DNA from: an uncultured delta proteobacterium
GTDB lineage: Bacteria > Desulfobacterota > Binatia > Binatales > Binataceae
Length of the DNA: 64,000 nucleotides
Direction of reading: 5' to 3'
Assembly: GCA_963842085.1 (NCBI GenBank)
Contig: CAWJET010000001.1
Location: forward strand, 2,400,001-2,464,000
The translations under genes and the position numbers were made by a program. Below, piece after piece: positions 17,638 to 60,773 of the stretch (position 1 is its first letter; each line of letters opens with the position of its first letter). The notes under the pieces were generated by a model that was not told where the DNA came from, did no database searches, and saw only the letters and a program-made list of their open reading frames with translations.

Positions 17638-17710
17638 GCGGAACCCAGTGTGGGTTCCGCACCTCCTTGGGCGGGGGTGATCACCCCCTGCGCGTCCCCT
17701 GCACCCGGTG
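17638..17710 (+). repeat. palindromic repeat family B, copy 1 (long form)
   Basis: GCGGAACCCA-gtg-TGGGTTCCGC, linker ACCTCCTTGG, GCGGGGGTGATCACCCCCTGCGCGTCCCCTGCACCCGGTG. Confidence 0.85.
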
Positions 17711-18768: not shown

Positions 18769-18832
18769 GTGAAACCCCACCTGGGTTTCACACTTCCTTG
18801 GGCAGGGGTGACCCCTGCACCCGGTGTTAAAA
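18769..18832 (+). repeat. palindromic repeat family B, copy 2 (short form)
   Basis: GTGAAACCC-cacct-GGGTTTCAC, ACTTCCTTGG, GCAGGGG-TGA-CCCCTGCACCCGGTGTTAAAA. Confidence 0.85.
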
Positions 18833-18886
18833 GAAAGATGCCGGACTTCGTCCCTGTTAGAACTTATTGCGGGATGTCGTCAGACG

Positions 18887-23226: not shown

Positions 23227-23279
23227 CCCTCTGATCCCCGCCCGTTGATTCAGGCGAGAGGTGAGGTGAGGGTTCTGCG
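23227..23279 (+). repeat. repeat family A, solitary degenerate copy
   Basis: ctctgatCCCCGCCCGTTgattcAGGCGAGAGGTGAGGTGAGGGTTCTGCG aligns with the DUF559 IR; lies between convergent genes. Confidence 0.8.
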
Positions 23280-23311
23280 CTGCATGAGCAATCTCCGCGC
23301 GATTCTTCTAC

Positions 23312-31918: not shown

Positions 31919-31960
31919 GGCAGGGGGCTGGGAGCAATCCCAGCCCCCAAATTGCCTTTC
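31919..31960 (+). terminator. terminator-like hairpin
   Basis: GGGGGCTGGGA-GCAA-TCCCAGCCCCC, followed by a short T run. Confidence 0.6.
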
Positions 31961-31973
31961 TGCGATCTTCTTA

Positions 31974-32503
31974 ATGCCTCGCCCGTTACTTCACGGGAGA
32001 GGTTAGGTGAGGGTTCTGCGGTTCACCACCATTTCATGTCACGCGCAAAAGTGAGATTGTCCCATCGATGGCCGACCTCACGCCGCCGCGACTCCTTCCA
32101 AAAGTACCACTCGCTCGTTCTCGTGCACTGCGTCGCGATTCCACCGAAGCTGTGAAGCGACTGTGGGCGATTCTGCAGAATCGACAACTCGACGGCAGGA
32201 AGTTTCGTCGTCAGGTTGCGCTCGATTCGTACATCGTAGATTTCTGCTGCAGCGCGGCGAGGTTGATCGTCGAAATCGATGGCGAACAGCATGCTGACAA
32301 ACGCAAGCGCTACGACGACGCACGTACGCGAGAACTGGAAGCGCGCGGTTTCAGAGTGATCAGATTCTGGAACTACGAAGTGTTGCAGGGCGCTGAGGGC
32401 GTGGTCGAGGAGATTCGACGCCTATTGTCTGACGCTGGCCGATCACCACGATGATCCGCAGTACCCTCACCTAACCTCTCCCGTAAACTAACGGGCGAGG
32501 CAT
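31974..32503 (+). mobile_element. putative DUF559 element bounded by 52-bp inverted repeats (family A)
   Basis: 31974-32025 and 32452-32503 are inverted repeats at 48/52 identity, each containing an internal hairpin. Confidence 0.7.
32068..32454 (+). CDS. DUF559 / Vsr-like endonuclease
   Basis: RALRRDST, LW, FRRQ, YIVDF, IVEIDGEQH, GFRVIRFWN. Confidence 0.92.
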   Translation: MADLTPPRLLPKVPLARSRALRRDSTEAVKRLWAILQNRQLDGRKFRRQVALDSYIVDFCCSAARLIVEIDGEQHADKRKRYDDARTRELEARGFRVIRFWNYEVLQGAEGVVEEIRRLLSDAGRSPR

Positions 32504-32517
32504 CAGAAAGAGACCAC

Positions 32518-45854: not shown

Positions 45855-45958
45855 GCGCGCGGCGCGCGTTTCGGGGAAACCGGGGTCGCACTGCGTGCGT
45901 GATTTGGTGGCCTTGTGCCTGCGGCGAGCGCGATAGTGTCGACGCCCACCAGCGTATG

Positions 45959-48262
45959 TCAGTGCCCCCAGGAGCGGGCGCAGCTTAAGATGTCGATCGG
46001 CGTGCCGTCCTCGACTGCGCGGTACTTTTGCCAGAAGCTCGAATCGATTTGCTTGAGCGCCGGCGGCTCGCGCCGGCGCCATCGATTGCACGCTCCCGGG
46101 CCGCCGTTGTAGGCCGCATACGCCGAGCGCGCGAGATGGCTGGCTACCGGCACAGGATCGAACTTCGGTTGCGCGGCCGACGCATACTGCATCATGCGCG
46201 CCAGGATCTCGCACCCCGCGCCCGCGTTGTAGAGCACGTCCCACTTGAGGCGCTCGATATCGTAAAACCCGCGCCACACGTGCTTGTTCACCTGCATCAG
46301 GCCGATGTCGCCGGTCGCGGACTCGAGCCATCGCAGGCGCGCGCCGTCCAACACGAATTGGCGCCAGCAGCTTTCCTCCCATGCGGTGCTGAGCACGAGC
46401 GTTACGTAAGTCTGTGAATTGTTGGCGTCGATGGCGGCGGTGCTGAGTTGGTGCTCGGCGCTGAGATTGAGCAGCAGGCCCATGTCGTGGCGATAGGAGT
46501 CGGCGTTCGCTTCGGTCACGACGAGATGGTAGAGGCGGCCGGCGACATCCTGCAGGCGAGGCATCAGTGCGGTGTCGTCCTCGGCAGCGTCGGCCTCTTG
46601 CGGTGAGAGGAGGTTTAGCAACCTAACCCCTAACCCAGGGGCAGCAGAACCCGCACCTGCCTCGCTACGCGAGGTCGCCTCTCCCGTAAAGTAACAGGCG
46701 AGGTAATTTCGGAACATTCGCGCGGAAGGCCCGGGCGTCGGGAGAATTGATCCGCGCGGCGACGGGACCGCCGCCGGCGTGCTTGCGCTGCTTGAACCTG
46801 GCAACGCGCCGCCCGCGGAGGAGGGAGGGATGTTTTCTTCTTCGATTGGATGGTGGCTTGCGGTCGGCACCGCCGCGGTCGGCACCGCCGCGGGCGGCTC
46901 CGCCGCGGGCGGCTCCGGGAATGCGAAGAGCTTTTTCAGGTCACGATCTTCGCTGTAGTTGAACTGAAGCGGATCGCCGGTGGCAGTGGGCGCCATGATA
47001 TGCGCGAGGCGGCGAAGATCGGCGGCCGAGATGCGCATCCCAAGCGCGGGCGCCGCCTGATCGAGCGCAAACAGCGCGTCGCCGGCCGAGATGAACGACA
47101 TGAATTCGAGCGCGCTCGGCCCCAGCATCCCGCGCCGCGCGGCGGCGCGGACCGCGTCGTGGAGCTGGCGCCATTCGTCGAGGAACAAAACGCGCACCGG
47201 ATCGGGCCCCGCCGCGGCGGGCGGATTGTTCAGCGCCTGGACGAGGCGATAGCGGCTGTCGAGCAGGATTTGCAGCAACTGGTCGCGGAATTGATGGTCG
47301 CCGACCGCGTCGCCGAGATGCTTGATCGAGAAAACCAGAAACGCGTCCCATTGATCGAGCGTGTCCTGGAAGGCTTTCAGCTCGGCCGGCCTGGGCGAGG
47401 CCGCGGCGCCGGGAATCGCGGTCGGAGTCGGGAAGTCAGGCACCGTCATCACGAGCGTGATGCGGACGCCGTCGTCGAGCGCGGCGATGTCCCGCTCGGC
47501 GGTCAGACTTGCGATCGCGGCGCGGACGCGCTCGGCGGCGTCGGGCGGAATCGCATCGGCGGCCATCGCGGCGAGCTGCTGAACCGCGGGATTGAGATCG
47601 TAGGAAAAGTCGTCGAGCCGCGGAATGAGATAGCTCTTGATGAGGTCGAAGCCCCGGCTGACGAGCTCCGTTTCCTGATGGGCCGTATCGTAGAGATTCA
47701 AATCGGTGAAGTGAAATTTGAGCTGGAGGCCGGGCGCGATGTACGGGACGCCGAGCGCCTCGACGATGCCGCTCCATTGTATGGCGTTGAGGCATTGCGA
47801 TCCCATCGCGACGCCCAGCGCGAGGCTGTTGGCGGTTTCGAGCCGCACCGTTGCGGCGCCGCCGGCGGTGGCGCGTGAGAACTCGGGATTTTCGGCGTAG
47901 AGATACTGGCAATCGCTGAGGCCCTTCCAAAGCTCGGCGCGCCCGCCGGGCGCGGTGTAGAGCTTGCGCTTGAGCGCTTCGCGCAGCGTGATGTAGTCGA
48001 TGGTGAGCGGAATGCGCACTTGCGATGCGCGCGCGGGAGCGGAGTGGCCGAGGAAGATTGACATCGCGACGGCGATAATTGTCCACAACCTAACTGCTGA
48101 GGTCTTTGGTGCAACCTGAGCGGCCGCGTTACGCGAGGCCGCCTCTCCCCTAAAATAGTGGGCGAGGTAATCGCGGAAAAATCGCGGACAGAGGAGGCGC
48201 GGCGAGTCGGATCTAACGAGCATGGTCATGAATTGCCGGTTTTGGTTACGAAGGCGACTCAA
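45959..48262 (-). CDS. exported protein with C-terminal lytic transglycosylase (SLT) domain (start uncertain)
   Basis: AWEES, GLMQVN, AAYNGG; signal-like stretch LWTIIAVAMSIFLGHSAPARA. Confidence 0.82.
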   Translation of the reverse strand: MSRLRNQNRQFMTMLVRSDSPRLLCPRFFRDYLAHYFRGEAASRNAAAQVAPKTSAVRLWTIIAVAMSIFLGHSAPARASQVRIPLTIDYITLREALKRKLYTAPGGRAELWKGLSDCQYLYAENPEFSRATAGGAATVRLETANSLALGVAMGSQCLNAIQWSGIVEALGVPYIAPGLQLKFHFTDLNLYDTAHQETELVSRGFDLIKSYLIPRLDDFSYDLNPAVQQLAAMAADAIPPDAAERVRAAIASLTAERDIAALDDGVRITLVMTVPDFPTPTAIPGAAASPRPAELKAFQDTLDQWDAFLVFSIKHLGDAVGDHQFRDQLLQILLDSRYRLVQALNNPPAAAGPDPVRVLFLDEWRQLHDAVRAAARRGMLGPSALEFMSFISAGDALFALDQAAPALGMRISAADLRRLAHIMAPTATGDPLQFNYSEDRDLKKLFAFPEPPAAEPPAAVPTAAVPTASHHPIEEENIPPSSAGGALPGSSSASTPAAVPSPRGSILPTPGPSARMFRNYLACYFTGEATSRSEAGAGSAAPGLGVRLLNLLSPQEADAAEDDTALMPRLQDVAGRLYHLVVTEANADSYRHDMGLLLNLSAEHQLSTAAIDANNSQTYVTLVLSTAWEESCWRQFVLDGARLRWLESATGDIGLMQVNKHVWRGFYDIERLKWDVLYNAGAGCEILARMMQYASAAQPKFDPVPVASHLARSAYAAYNGGPGACNRWRRREPPALKQIDSSFWQKYRAVEDGTPIDILSCARSWGH
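46619..46714 (-). repeat. repeat family A copy, in frame within the SLT gene
   Basis: + strand GCAGAACCCGCACCT-[gcctcgctacgcgaggtcg]-CCTCTCCCGTAAAGTAACAGGCGAGG matches the DUF559 IR; encodes FRNYLACYFTGEATSRSEAGAGSAAPGLGVRL. Confidence 0.8.
46861..46917. repeat. 15-bp tandem repeat, about 3.8 units
   Basis: cggtcggcaccgccg x2, cgggcggctccgccg x1.8; encodes EPPAAEPPAAVPTAAVPT linker. Confidence 0.85.
48086..48178 (-). repeat. repeat family A copy at the 5' end of the SLT gene
   Basis: Paralogous to 46619-46714; reads FRDYLAHYFRGEAASRNAAAQVAPKTSAVRL in the SLT frame. Confidence 0.75.
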
Positions 48263-48324
48263 CTCGCGCGCATCAGGCGCGCACTCCTGTCATGAGTCAA
48301 CTATTATGGCAACTGCGTTCGTCC

Positions 48325-48353
48325 TTGAAAGCGGTTGCGCCGGTTACGATAAT
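48325..48353 (+). promoter_or_regulatory. putative sigma70 promoter
   Basis: TTGAAA-N17-GATAAT, 40 nt before ATG 48393. Confidence 0.5.
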
Positions 48354-48392
48354 CATGTCCGAAGTATCGCCGGAAGCTGACGGGTAAGCCCG

Positions 48393-48908
48393 ATGAGTAC
48401 AGAACGTCAGGCAGATTTTTACGAAGCGGAGCCGCCGCAGGCGTCGCGCGAACTGGCGAAGCTGCGAGCCTCGAGCGACTACGTGGCGCCGTTCGAGATC
48501 GTGCGGCGGCGCGTGATCGACGACGTCTACGAAGGCAAGATGACGGTCGATGCGACGCTCATAATCCGCATCGGCGACATCGAGGAAACCGAAGCGGCGT
48601 CGGGTGTCGGCGTGCTGCACGCGCTCGACGTGGCGCTGCGCAAGGCCCTGCTCAAATATTTTCCGTACCTCGAACCGGTAAAAGTGATCGAAACTTATCA
48701 GCACGCGACCGGCGCTTCGACCGAGGCGGACGTCGTGTCGGTCAAGAAATTTTCCGACGGGCAGATGTTGTGGACCACGCTGGCGAAGTCGTCCAACACG
48801 ATCGAGGCGGCATGGATGTCGCTGCTCGACGGCTACGAATGGCGAATCATCAACGAGAACGCCCGGCTGCGCCGGCTGAACGCGAATTCGCGGCTGTCGC
48901 GGCGCTGA
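48393..48908 (+). CDS. stand-alone LeuA/CimA-type allosteric regulatory domain
   Basis: GVGVLHALDVALRKAL..FP.L and SSNTIEAAWMSLLDG resemble the CimA C-terminus. Confidence 0.7.
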   Translation: MSTERQADFYEAEPPQASRELAKLRASSDYVAPFEIVRRRVIDDVYEGKMTVDATLIIRIGDIEETEAASGVGVLHALDVALRKALLKYFPYLEPVKVIETYQHATGASTEADVVSVKKFSDGQMLWTTLAKSSNTIEAAWMSLLDGYEWRIINENARLRRLNANSRLSRR

Positions 48909-49357: not shown

Positions 49358-49387
49358 TCGCCTCTTCCCCCAAGCCCCGCATCTCTG

Positions 49388-49433
49388 TTTTAACATTGGG
49401 TGCAGGGGATGCGCCGGGGGCGATCGCCCCTGC
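49388..49433 (-). repeat. repeat family B, copy 3 (long form)
   Basis: Minus strand GCAGGGGCGATCGCCCCCGGCGCATCCCCTGCACCCAATGTTAAAA. Confidence 0.8.
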
Positions 49434-50881: not shown

Positions 50882-50913
50882 TCTACCAAGCCAAGGAAAT
50901 AGCGGATTTTTTC

Positions 50914-50941
50914 TTAATACTGGTGCAGGGGTCACCCCTGC
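50914..50941 (-). repeat. repeat family B, copy 4 (short form)
   Basis: Minus strand GCAGGGG-TGA-CCCCTGCACCAGTATTAA. Confidence 0.8.
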
Positions 50942-59812: not shown

Positions 59813-60271
59813 CTACGCTCCGCCGCCCGGCGCTGGCGCACCACCGCCGCCGCCGCCAGGAGGTAGCGACGACACCGCGATCGCGATCGCCTCCGCGCCC
59901 GCCGACTTTGCCACGTCCAGAATACGAACCATATCACCAAGTATAACCTTTGGGTCACCCTGGAAAATCACTATTTTGTCGGTCGAATTCTGGAGCGCGT
60001 CATGAAGCTGCGGCATCAACTCGGGCTCCGTGACCTGCTTGTCGTTCAGATAGATCAAATGGTCGGCGGTGTAAGTGACAATGATGCCCTTGGGCTTTTC
60101 GTTTGGCGCGGTCGAAGCTTCGGCCTTGGGCAAATCGACGTGCGCCGCAGACTCGATTGTCACAGCCGTCGTCACCATGAAAATGATCAGCAGGACCAGA
60201 AAGATATCGGTCAGCGGGGTGATGTTGATATCGGCGAACACCCCGCCGCCCTGGTTTTTACTCATTGCCAT
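59813..60271 (-). CDS. exbD: ExbD/TolR family
   Basis: INITPLTDIFLVLLIIFMV with the conserved Asp. Confidence 0.9.
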   Translation of the reverse strand: MAMSKNQGGGVFADINITPLTDIFLVLLIIFMVTTAVTIESAAHVDLPKAEASTAPNEKPKGIIVTYTADHLIYLNDKQVTEPELMPQLHDALQNSTDKIVIFQGDPKVILGDMVRILDVAKSAGAEAIAIAVSSLPPGGGGGGAPAPGGGA

Positions 60272-60326: not shown

Positions 60327-60773
60327 TCAACCTCCGGCACCCGACGAGTTGGCTAGTTGCGCACCCGTAACCCGCTTGGCCGCGATTGCAATTTGCGAGG
60401 CTCCGGCAGCCTTGGCAATATTGAGGATCCGTACCATGTCACCGAGCAGCACTTTGCGATCGCCCTGAAACACGACGATCTTCTGGTCAACCTTGCCCAA
60501 CGCGTCGGCCAGACTGGAGCGGAGTTCGCGCTCGGGAACGTCCCTGGAGTTCACGAACAGCTCGTGCTGGGCGGTGTAGGTCACGATGACGCCCTTGTTC
60601 TCGGGCGCGGTGTTGGTCGCGGTCGGCAGATCGACGTGCGCGGCGGACTCGATGGTGACCGAAGTGGTCACCATGAAGATGATCAGCAGCACCAGGAAGA
60701 TATCGGTCAGCGGCGTGATATTGATGTCGGCGAAAACGCCGCCACCGCTGGTATGCGGTCCGCTAATTGCCAC
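60327..60773 (-). CDS. exbD: ExbD/TolR family (paralog)
   Basis: Same TM motif; overlaps the exbB stop. Confidence 0.9.
   Translation of the reverse strand: MAISGPHTSGGGVFADINITPLTDIFLVLLIIFMVTTSVTIESAAHVDLPTATNTAPENKGVIVTYTAQHELFVNSRDVPERELRSSLADALGKVDQKIVVFQGDRKVLLGDMVRILNIAKAAGASQIAIAAKRVTGAQLANSSGAGG

What the first reader, a model, noticed from the sequence alone, without database searches (positions are those of the whole stretch)
46619..48178. The mobile repeat is written into protein: two in-frame copies in a lytic transglycosylase gene
Units of about 95 bp at 46619-46714 and 48086-48178 contain the family-A hairpin plus an extra small hairpin (cctcgc-tac-gcgagg in the first). Both read in the gene's frame as related peptides: FRNYLACYFTGEATSRSEAGAGSAAPGLGVRL and FRDYLAHYFRGEAASRNAAAQVAPKTSAVRL. 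The first lies mid-ORF in a Pro/Ala linker, so it is translated if the ORF is one gene. The second depends on the true start. This parallels Rickettsia palindromic elements that add peptide inserts to proteins.
Basis: partly seen in the sequence, partly recalled or inferred. Interest (0 to 1): 0.75.

Follow-up and report, generated by a model that had tools for sequence, protein, structure and literature searches.

The report
Hairpin repeats translated inside bacterial genes
Two copies of a small hairpin-forming repeat sit in frame inside one cell-wall enzyme gene of an uncultured soil bacterium, the same repeat is also written into two other proteins, and it looks like the loose end of a tiny, undescribed mobile gene.

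Summary
Confirmed. The window comes from a Candidatus Binatus genome, named by the source labels of homologous proteins. Both units (46619-46714, 48086-48178) are real copies of a lineage-specific hairpin repeat. Both lie in frame in one 756-aa gene: unknown N-domain, disordered linker, SLT lytic transglycosylase domain.

Orthologs show it is one gene. The frame runs through the linker in 19 of 22 genus genomes. Both sites also exist without the insert.

The picture is richer than one insertion. Most orthologs carry an older, shorter hairpin element ("B", peptide LFPFPRGKGLGVRL) at both sites. In this genome a "long A" element has replaced the B hairpin at both.

The mid copy is almost certainly translated as linker. 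The N-terminal copy is probably translated in the n-region of a cleaved signal peptide. A conserved ATG is in frame in 19 of 21 orthologs.

The same long-A element is also in frame, in reverse orientation, in PurL and in a STAND-type cyclase.

This closely parallels Rickettsia palindromic elements but is an unrelated family.

Unexpected lead: the repeats match the terminal inverted repeats of compact, about 540-630 bp DUF559 nuclease elements.

No RNA or protein data exist.

The parts
45959..48229 (-). Single gene for a 756-aa secreted protein: signal peptide, N-terminal domain of unknown family, long disordered linker, C-terminal SLT lytic transglycosylase domain. The start is taken as the conserved ATG at 48229. 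The stop-to-stop frame reaches 48262 or beyond.
   Evidence: ORF. Public gene calls give 756 aa for this exact protein (P0001). Both halves lie in one frame in 19 of 22 genus genomes. The homologous ATG is in frame in 19 of 21 orthologs.
46064..46414 (-). SLT (family 1 lytic transglycosylase) catalytic domain, aa 617-733 of the 767-aa ORF.
   Evidence: Pfam PF01464, E 3.2e-7, above cut-off. The stretches WEESCW, GLMQVN and AAYNGG are visible in the translation and conserved in 52 homologs.
46577..46975 (-). Pro/Ala/Ser-rich interdomain linker, predicted unstructured. It contains the mid-ORF repeat.
   Evidence: AlphaFold2 model on 52 sequences gives pLDDT under 50 for residues 419-551 of the 756-aa protein. 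Its length varies among orthologs but is always in frame.
46619..46723 (-). Mid-ORF composite repeat. B tail at 46619-46636. Long-A element at about 46637-46710: tail 46644-46657, small palindrome 46659-46675, main hairpin 46678-46703. B head at 46711-46723. It reads ...ARMFRNYLACYFTGEATSRSEAGAGSAAPGLGVRL...
   Evidence: Orthologs carry a B-only form (7 of 21), an A-in-B form (5 of 21) or neither (9 of 21) at this site.
48086..48187 (-). N-terminal composite repeat. Degenerate B tail at about 48086-48106. Long-A element with decayed tail: small palindrome 48123-48139, main hairpin 48142-48167. B-type head at 48175-48187. It reads ...PRFFRDYLAHYFRGEAASRNAAAQVAPKTSAVRL...
   Evidence: A long-A form at this site was seen only in this genome, among 21 genus orthologs and 120 database homologs.
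48029..48091 (-). Signal-peptide hydrophobic core and A-x-A type cleavage region (LWTIIAVAMSIFLGHSAPARA / SQVRIPL). It lies directly downstream of the N-terminal repeat. The TTG at 48091-48089 is the alternative start.
   Evidence: Translation. Conserved in orthologs. Predicted helix at residues 43-61 of the 756-aa protein. The cleavage site is inferred from the sequence pattern; no signal-peptide predictor was run.
31966..32511 (+). Compact DUF559 nuclease element in the same window. A 128-aa ORF (32068-32454) is flanked by inverted short-A repeats (31966-32025 and 32452-32511). This is the candidate autonomous relative of the repeat.
   Evidence: Inverted pair of 60 nt, 88% complementary. 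PF04480 E 3.9e-38. PDB 3hrl 'endonuclease-like protein' E 1.2e-24.
23236..23300 (+). Another intergenic short-A copy in the window.

Best explanation
**The repeats.** The two units are copies of a hairpin repeat superfamily specific to Candidatus Binatus. Each copy is built from three modules:
- a polypyrimidine/polypurine hairpin
- an optional second small palindrome
- a G-rich tail of the type GGTGAGGG or GGTTAGGGGTTAGG

Copies normally sit just after stop codons.

**Order of events in the SLT gene (inferred).**
1. A short 'B' element became fixed at two places in an ancestor within the genus. The first was in front of the signal-peptide hydrophobic core. The second, later, was in the interdomain linker.
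2. A 'long-A' element then replaced the B hairpin at the linker site in some lineages.
3. In this genome's lineage it did the same at the N-terminal site. The route was either a second insertion into the B hairpin or intragenic gene conversion between the two B-flanked sites.

**Why the copies survive.** Only copies that add a multiple of three bases, carry no stop in the host frame and land in tolerant, unstructured segments persist. They are then translated.

**Fate of each copy.** The linker copy adds about 25-32 residues to a roughly 130-residue disordered linker. The N-terminal copy lengthens the n-region of a signal peptide that is cleaved off.

**Which steps are shown.** Repeat identity, in-frame position, states without the insert in orthologs, and the single gene.

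**Which steps are inferred.** Translation, the start codon, the order of events, neutrality of the inserts and the mobilising enzyme.
For: **Repeat family.**
- nhmmer finds 41 A and 25 B copies in the genome. Most lie outside coding-like ORFs, and several sit directly after stop codons.
- The A hairpin pattern was found in 8 of 151 class genomes: 5 of 5 other genus genomes plus G000, 2 of 12 genomes of other genera of the family, and 0 of 133 genomes of other families. A reversed control gave 0.

**One gene.**
- Both halves lie in one frame in 19 of 22 genus genomes with a match. The three exceptions are G009, which breaks inside the SLT domain, and G014 and G020, which are 82% and 64% complete.
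- Relatives at 35% identity also have one frame.
- All 120 listed homologs are called at 490-821 aa; most are 650-720 aa.

**Mid site** in 21 genus orthologs: A-in-B in 5, B-only in 7, neither in 9. The forms without an insert occupy the early branches of the tree.

**N-terminal site.**
- The homologous ATG is in frame in 19 of 21 orthologs.
- The ATG-to-(T/C)TG distance takes 10 different values (27-180 nt), all multiples of 3.
- The alternative start codon is CTG, not TTG, in 7 of 21.

**Junctions and descent.**
- The A junctions are the same in L001, L002, L004 and L007.
- Orthologous mid copies are 81-95% alike.
- The N-terminal copy shares their special small-palindrome arm.

**Tolerance.** Both inserts fall in regions with pLDDT under 50.

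**Generality.**
- The long-A element is in frame, in reverse orientation, in PurL. 6 of 30 genus loci carry it, and 75 nt replace 45 nt of a variable linker. The protein otherwise aligns end to end with Thermus PurL 3viu.
- It is also in frame in a STAND cyclase. 5 of 23 aligned relatives carry it, and the others have a short loop there.

**Independent assemblies** reproduce both copies.
Against: - No RNA or protein evidence exists. No RNA run holding the stretch was listed, so translation is inferred from frame conservation only.
- In G004 (L016) the homologous ATG is out of frame. G006 (L017) has no ATG there, only an in-frame GTG.
- At least 17 of the 120 public gene calls start at the (M/L)WI.. 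codon right after the repeat.
- No Shine-Dalgarno-like motif is evident before the ATG. The promoter scan found nothing on this strand.
- The inserts are replacements rather than clean insertions. No target-site duplication was seen. The integration mechanism is therefore unknown.
- The A/B state changes at least 6 times on the ortholog tree (quick tree, several weak forks). A single-insertion history does not explain this without recombination or conversion.
- The mid copy's mRNA fold is no better than shuffles.
Confidence: 0.8

Rival explanations
1. Only the linker copy is coding. The N-terminal copy lies in the 5' untranslated leader, and translation starts at the TTG (48091) immediately after it. 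On this reading the element supplies a G-rich stretch upstream of the start.
For: - At least 17 of 120 public gene calls for homologs start at (M/L)WI...
- In G004 the upstream ATG is out of frame, and its frame ends in a stop within the hydrophobic core.
- No Shine-Dalgarno-like motif precedes the ATG.
Against: - The ATG is in frame in 19 of 21 orthologs.
- The 10 distinct ATG-to-TTG spacings are all multiples of 3.
- The alternative codon is CTG in 7 of 21 orthologs.
- A start at TTG would leave a signal peptide with no charged n-region. This point rests on established knowledge of Sec signal peptides, not on a tool.
Confidence: 0.2
2. The ORF is really two genes, an N-domain protein and an SLT protein. 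The mid repeat would then sit in the intergenic spacer, and the open frame would be a chance feature of GC-rich DNA.
For: - The repeat family is normally intergenic.
- The segment after the repeat (LLNLLSP..) is mildly hydrophobic.
- Frames are broken in G014 and G020.
Against: - A single frame spans the linker in 19 of 22 genus genomes and in distant relatives, despite linker lengths that differ among orthologs.
- By my estimate from base composition, about 0.03 stops per codon are expected. That gives about a 2% chance that 130 codons stay open in one lineage.
- No conserved start or stop codon lies at the linker.
- Public gene calls are single proteins.
Confidence: 0.03
3. The peptide motifs are ancestral functional modules of the protein, and the genomic 'repeats' are fragments derived from this gene.
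For: The same short motif (LFPFPRGKGLGVRL) stands at both sites in many orthologs.
Against: - Early-branching orthologs lack both motifs.
- The DNA is a hairpin with dozens of intergenic copies.
- The same DNA is read in the opposite orientation, as a different peptide, in PurL and the STAND protein.
- Within G009 the two B copies are identical over 46 nt, while orthologous B copies at the same sites differ between species.
Confidence: 0.03
4. Sub-question on origin: the second long-A copy arose by an independent insertion into the B hairpin, which would make B hairpins a preferred target. The alternative is intragenic gene conversion from the linker copy.
For: - A and B elements cluster elsewhere in the genome, for example at C2:1025575-1025801 and C2:668549-668635.
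- The 3' half of the N-terminal copy differs strongly from the linker copy.
- The A state is scattered on the tree.
Against: - The N-terminal copy shares the unusual small-palindrome arm (GGCGGCCTCGCGTA). This arm is seen in the SLT linker copies but not in the nine other long-A copies aligned.
- It shares the same 5' junction.
- The two B copies of G009 are identical over 46 nt, which suggests conversion between the sites.
Confidence: 0.35

Closest known systems
Rickettsia palindromic elements (RPE). Basis: Ogata et al. 2000 Science as cited in the review PMC10969869. I read passages of the review only, not the original paper.
   Same: - Short palindromic repeats present both between genes and inside ORFs.
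- In frame, without stops.
- Inserted in unrelated genes, including housekeeping enzymes.
- Orthologs without the insert exist.
- Inserts sit in structurally tolerant places.
   Different: - No sequence relation was tested or is expected. Rfam has no match.
- The host is a free-living soil bacterium of a candidate phylum, not an obligate intracellular one.
- The units are shorter: about 66-75 nt for long-A and about 95 nt for the composite.
- A lower share is in ORFs: 4 of 41 A copies here, against nearly half of the RPEs from three of ten families according to the review.
- Both orientations are used, giving two different peptides.
- One element is nested in another.
- One copy lies in a signal peptide.
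- The repeats match the terminal repeats of a DUF559 gene.
REP / REPIN elements with their RAYT transposase, and BIME mosaics of enterobacteria (recalled knowledge; no paper read here).
   Same: - Imperfect palindromes of 20-40 nt with a conserved mismatch.
- Located mostly after stop codons.
- Form mosaic clusters of several subtypes.
- Found in inverted orientation on both sides of a small nuclease gene.
   Different: - The flanked gene is a DUF559 (PD-(D/E)XK, Vsr-like) nuclease, not a Y1 HUH transposase.
- The genome's only Y1_Tnp hit has none of the A/B hairpin or tail motifs within about 1.3 kb.
- No GTAG-type 5' motif was noticed in the printed copies; no specific search was made.
Bacterial MITEs that make in-frame fusions (intragenic ERIC, BOX, Anabaena MITEs). 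Basis: review PMC10969869, passages read.
   Same: A small non-autonomous repeat related to the ends of a larger element that carries a gene. It occasionally contributes coding sequence.
   Different: - Copies are single terminal repeats, not paired TIRs around a short core.
- No target-site duplication was found.
SLT-domain (family 1) lytic transglycosylases, Pfam PF01464.
   Same: The C-terminal domain matches the family above its cut-off and keeps the conserved ES, GLMQ and AYNGG stretches.
   Different: - The N-terminal domain of about 400 aa gave no hit in Pfam (whole-protein scan, E up to 0.01) and none in NCBIfam.
- The long disordered linker carries repeat-derived sequence.

Membership tests
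RPE-like protein-coding palindromic repeats (the kind, not the Rickettsia families) | A repeated, hairpin-forming element with many copies in the genome | tested here: met
   41 A and 25 B copies by nhmmer. The hairpins are visible in the sequence. The generic hairpin pattern occurs 68 times in G000, against 0 for the reversed control.
RPE-like protein-coding palindromic repeats (the kind, not the Rickettsia families) | Copies inside ORFs that keep the frame and carry no stop | tested here: met
   4 of 41 A copies lie inside coding-like ORFs: two in SLT, one in PurL and one in the STAND cyclase.
RPE-like protein-coding palindromic repeats (the kind, not the Rickettsia families) | Orthologs or paralogs without the insert at the same position | tested here: met
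   - SLT mid site: 9 of 21 orthologs have neither form.
- PurL: 24 of 30 loci lack it.
- STAND: 18 of 23 aligned relatives lack it.
RPE-like protein-coding palindromic repeats (the kind, not the Rickettsia families) | The insert is expressed as part of the protein | not testable with these tools
   No RNA run was listed and no proteomics is available. Translation is inferred from frame conservation and, for PurL, from the enzyme being a core purine-synthesis gene (this last point is general knowledge).
Rickettsia RPE families proper | Sequence similarity to RPE-1 to RPE-10 | not tested
   No RPE sequences were at hand. Rfam has no match for the region. The organism is unrelated, so membership is not claimed.
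REP/REPIN-RAYT system | A RAYT (Y1 HUH transposase) gene flanked by the repeats | tested here: not met
   The genome has one PF01797 hit (C1:1118947-1119174). None of the four A/B hairpin and tail motifs searched lies within about 1.3 kb of it.
REP/REPIN-RAYT system | Short imperfect palindromes, mainly extragenic | tested here: met
   The G/A mismatch in the A stem is conserved in copies across genomes.
MITE | Terminal inverted repeats at both ends plus a target-site duplication | tested here: not met
   Dispersed copies are single hairpin modules. No direct repeats flank 11 full DUF559 elements examined.
SLT lytic transglycosylase (PF01464) | Domain match above the curated cut-off, and the conserved stretch holding the catalytic glutamate | tested here: met
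   30.3 bits against a cut-off of 21.3. E619 and S620 are invariant in 52 homologs. Their catalytic role is inferred from family knowledge.
DUF559 endonuclease-like family (PF04480) | Domain match and similarity to a solved endonuclease-like protein | tested here: met
   PF04480 E 3.9e-38 for the window copy. PDB 3hrl E 1.2e-24. The NCBIfam DUF559 model scores below its equivalog cut-off (89 against 218 bits).

The most novel reading that the evidence does not exclude
**Proposal.** The hairpin repeats are solo terminal inverted repeats of a previously undescribed class of compact mobile element. Each element is about 540-630 bp and holds one DUF559 (Vsr-like PD-(D/E)XK) nuclease gene between 42-92-nt hairpin-bearing TIRs. 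The nuclease would mobilise the repeats in trans, as RAYTs are thought to do for REPs. The dispersed solo ends then seed new peptide segments in proteins.

**Support.**
- All 3 DUF559 genes of this genome have inverted hairpin modules on both sides.
- 20 of 30 genus loci have a flanking inverted pair at E<1e-7, against 0 of 300 random control segments.
- The outer ends of the TIRs are exactly short-A, long-A or B-like modules.
- DUF559 occurs in 0-19 copies per genome. Its count tracks the hairpin count (Spearman 0.68, n=41, uncorrected for kinship or genome size).
- The window's element is absent from the same site in some relatives.

**What is not shown.** Any nuclease or transposition activity, target duplications, or that the gene is not simply a passenger between repeats.
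Probability: 0.35. Interest if true: 0.8.

Novelty: new member of a known kind. Interest (0 to 1): 0.62.

Why it matters
In-frame palindromic repeats that become protein sequence are textbook-known almost only from Rickettsia. The MITE review I read (PMC10969869) says it is merely 'conceivable' that the same happens in other prokaryotes.

This is a clean second case, in a free-living, uncultured soil lineage. States with and without the insert, and a nested state, are all preserved among relatives. One insert sits in a core enzyme (PurL). One gene was hit twice, once in its signal peptide. That makes the birth of linker and signal-peptide sequence from selfish DNA directly traceable.

It also matters for annotation. 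Gene callers disagree on the start of this gene because of the repeat.

If the DUF559 link holds, it would give a very widespread 'domain of unknown function' a role as the engine of a REP-like repeat family.

Tried and rejected
- **Rfam:** no family matches 45900-48400 at E up to 1.
- **RAYT link:** the single Y1_Tnp gene has none of the searched A/B hairpin or tail motifs nearby.
- **Promoter/terminator scan:** nothing on the gene's strand.
- **RNA evidence:** no RNA holder listed.
- **Population variants:** contigs of four soil runs show no joint that skips either repeat. One 248-nt skip (46881-47130) appears in a single X2 contig with a 21-nt side and lies outside the repeats. Loose ends at 46676 and 46708 are other genomic copies of the hairpin.
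- **Earlier scan notes for this genome:** two notes were returned, a FixJ-type operator and a selenoprotein pair. Neither bears on this finding.
- **Target-site duplications:** none seen around 11 DUF559 elements.
- **Insertion boundaries:** precise boundaries at the window's DUF559 site could not be defined, because the intergenic region varies in every relative compared.
- **N-terminal 'empty' state:** G005 and G002 at first looked like an empty N-terminal site. They keep the B head (CGATTGT), so they are better read as secondary deletions.
- **Tree:** I did not run an AU test on monophyly of the A state. The tree is a quick LG+G4 search with several open forks.
- **Rows left out:** G014 and G020 (broken frames) were left out of the ortholog alignment. 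G009's frame-shifted C-terminus was left in.
- **Literature:** the Binatota genome paper (PMC8262859) contains none of 'repeat', 'palindrom', 'transposable', 'MITE' or 'insertion sequence' in its main text. 25 library papers hold 'DUF559', and none of the 22 listed titles concerns mobility or inverted repeats (listing only). These searches cover the held library only.
Full report
**What is there.** The minus-strand ORF 45959..48262 encodes a protein with a C-terminal SLT lytic transglycosylase domain (PF01464, aa 617-733, E 3.2e-7). Public gene calls give 756 aa for it.
- A 24-nt core pattern hits only these two places in the window, with 0 expected by chance.
- Each unit holds the family-A hairpin and a second small palindrome.
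- In the gene's frame each reads as the quoted peptide.
- Source labels of homologous proteins name the organism Candidatus Binatus.
- The genome (G000) has two contigs, 4.93 Mb in all, at 61% G+C.

**The repeat family.** Profile searches of the genome find 41 A-type and 25 B-type copies.
- A consists of an imperfect hairpin (CCTCGCCCGT-loop-ACGGGAGAGG) followed by a GGTGAGGG-type tail.
- By the spacing between hairpin and tail, 12 copies are 'short', 19 are 'long' (a second small palindrome of about 20 nt lies between) and 10 are unclassed.
- B consists of a head (CGATTGTTCC), a short hairpin (CCCTTCCC-loop-GGGAAGGG) and a tail (GGTTAGGGGTTAGG).
- Most copies lie outside coding-like ORFs, and several sit directly after a stop codon.
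- The A hairpin was found in 8 of 151 genomes sampled from the class. These were 5 of 5 other genus genomes plus G000, 2 of 12 genomes of other genera of the family, and 0 of 133 of other families. The reversed control gave 0. G018, which is unpublished, is one of the five.
- The 'extra small hairpin' is therefore a regular feature of the long-A subfamily.

**One gene, not two.** Relatives of the protein were found in 22 of 24 other genus genomes.
- In 19 of these 22, the N-domain and the SLT domain lie in one open frame.
- The exceptions are G009 (break inside the SLT domain), G014 and G020 (82% and 64% complete).
- More distant relatives at 35% identity also have one frame.
- All 120 listed database homologs are single proteins.
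- The linker varies in length among orthologs but stays in frame.

**States at the two sites.** I aligned 21 genus orthologs and 2 outgroups. G014 and G020 were left out because of broken frames.

*Linker site.*
- 5 orthologs carry the long-A form: G000, G016, G021, G023 and G011. G023 is unpublished, and the other four show the same thing.
- 7 carry only B, read as LFPFPRGKGLGVRL.
- 9 carry neither.
- A regex count over the 120 database homologs gave 5 with the A peptide and about 34 with the B peptide at this site.

*N-terminal site.*
- Most orthologs of the same clade carry B or a decayed B.
- The four deepest-branching genus orthologs and both outgroups have neither form.
- Only G000 has long-A there.

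*Structure of the G000 copies.* At both sites in G000 the B head and B tail are kept, and the long-A element stands where the B hairpin was.

*Tree.* On a tree built without these columns, forms without an insert occupy the deep branches. The A/B state changes at least 6 times (quick search, several weak forks).

*Descent.*
- Four of the five A copies share identical junctions and are 81-95% alike.
- The G000 N-terminal copy shares their distinctive small-palindrome arm.
- In G009 the two B copies are identical over 46 nt.
- Together this suggests few insertion events plus conversion or recombination between the two sites or between lineages. That part is inference.
- The small palindrome differs between orthologs by paired changes (CCTCGC/GCGAGG against CCGAGC/GCTCGG).

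**Is the N-terminal copy translated?**
- A homologous ATG (MNILDRS.. or MTMLVRS..) is in frame in 19 of 21 orthologs.
- The distance from it to the codon after the repeat takes 10 values between 27 and 180 nt, all multiples of three.
- That codon is CTG, not TTG, in 7 of 21 orthologs.
- Against this, G004's ATG is out of frame, and G006 has only a GTG.
- At least 17 of 120 public calls start after the repeat.
- I put translation of this copy at about 0.7-0.8.
- It would lie in the n-region of a signal peptide (hydrophobic core LWTIIAVAMSIFLG, then APARA/SQ) and would be removed on export. This is inferred from the sequence pattern.

**Tolerance.** An AlphaFold2 model on 52 homologs is only moderate overall (mean pLDDT 57.5). 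It gives pLDDT below 50 for residues 1-18 and 24-41, and for the whole of 419-551. Those are the regions that hold both inserts.

**The same element in other proteins.** I scanned all copies against coding-like ORFs. 4 of 41 A copies lie inside genes, and all four are of the long type. Besides the two in SLT:

*(i) PurL (C2:1132390-1134708).*
- The element is in reverse orientation and reads PEPSPAGRNAAGLLSREITGEV.
- 6 of 30 genus loci carry it, and 24 have a different short linker.
- At the DNA level 75 nt stand in place of 45 nt.
- The protein otherwise aligns end to end with Thermus PurL, PDB 3viu (E 5.6e-191), and the element falls in a variable inter-domain stretch.

*(ii) A 1180-aa cyclase/ATPase/TPR protein (C1:445635-449174).*
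- 5 of 23 aligned relatives carry the insert. The others have a short loop there.

In some lineages the hairpin inside PurL has decayed. The inserts therefore seem to evolve as ordinary linker once fixed.

**Robustness.**
- Seven soil-metagenome DNA runs from two studies hold the stretch, and no RNA run was listed.
- Contigs from runs other than the likely source bridge both repeats without differences.
- No joint skips either repeat.

**Comparison with known systems.**
- The behaviour matches the Rickettsia palindromic elements as described in the review PMC10969869 (passages read).
- Membership in those families is not claimed.
- The repeats resemble REPs in form and position.
- However, the genome's single Y1 transposase gene is not flanked by them.
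- Rfam has no match.

**An unexpected lead.** In the same window, a 128-aa DUF559 gene (32068-32454) lies between inverted short-A copies.
- All 3 DUF559 genes of G000 have inverted hairpin modules on both sides.
- In 41 genus genomes DUF559 occurs in 0-19 copies.
- Of 30 loci examined, 20 have a flanking inverted pair of 22-92 nt at E<1e-7, against 0 of 300 random control segments of G000. One of the 20 is from the unpublished genome G018.
- In 11 elements inspected, the units are 537-632 bp long. Their TIR outer ends are exactly short-A-like, long-A-like or B-like modules. No target duplication was seen.
- Hairpin counts per genome (9-161) correlate with DUF559 counts. Spearman rho is 0.68, and 0.48 after removing three hairpins per gene. 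n=41, uncorrected for kinship or genome size.
- The window's element is shared with G004 and G042. It is absent at that site in G006, G013 and G045.
- The protein resembles a solved 'endonuclease-like protein' (3hrl, E 1.2e-24).
- The dispersed repeats, including those written into the SLT gene, may thus be solo ends of a DUF559-borne mobile element.
- I found nothing on this in the held library (listings only). No activity is shown.

**Verdict.** This is a new, well-documented case of a known kind of phenomenon, with an interesting and testable lead on what moves the repeats.

Noticed in passing
window 31966-32511; also G000 C2:104838-105152 and C1:374498-374812; loci L078-L107: DUF559 nuclease genes sit between hairpin-bearing inverted repeats of the same superfamily, forming compact units of about 540-630 bp. 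They occur in 0-19 copies per genus genome.
   Followed up: partly
G000 C1:2217050-2217664 and loci L063-L067: A paralog group of the STAND cyclase carries a different insert of about 33 aa (WQPPTISAIASTNPEA..LSRK..) in the very same loop where the long-A element sits in the other paralog. Whether it is repeat-derived was not checked.
   Followed up: no
locus L005 (G008), N-terminal region of the SLT ortholog: At the N-terminal site this ortholog has a different insert of about 105 nt, built from two hairpin modules of the same superfamily. It is also in frame between the ATG and the signal-peptide core.
   Followed up: no
locus L069 (G015), STAND ortholog loop: The peptide ..LTPISFPRGKENDIS.. 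in the same loop resembles the B-element peptide (FPFPRGK). It may be another in-frame B-type insertion.
   Followed up: no
window 17671-17706, 18802-18848, 49372-49433, 50907-50941: A different palindromic repeat family (GCAGGGGTGA.CACCCCTGC type, with a GGGTGCAGGGG motif) recurs in intergenic places, including just upstream of the gene that starts at 49400.
   Followed up: no
window about 31920-31950: A G+C-rich hairpin (GGGGGCTGGGAGCAATCCCAGCCCCC) at the end of the upstream gene is conserved across the genus. It marks the left edge of an intergenic hot spot whose content differs in every relative compared.
   Followed up: partly
G000 C1:1118791-1119240 (locus L027): A solitary 149-aa Y1 (IS200/RAYT-like) transposase ORF lies just downstream of the rho gene, without the A/B repeats nearby.
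   Followed up: partly
window 60129-60250 and 60625-60746: A direct repeat of 122 nt at 85% identity, with the two copies 496 nt apart.
   Followed up: no
G001 (loci L008 and L013): This relative has two copies of the SLT gene on different contigs (C67, with one in-frame TAA, and C25). They differ in repeat state at both sites. The genome's contamination estimate is 8%, so they may come from two strains.
   Followed up: no
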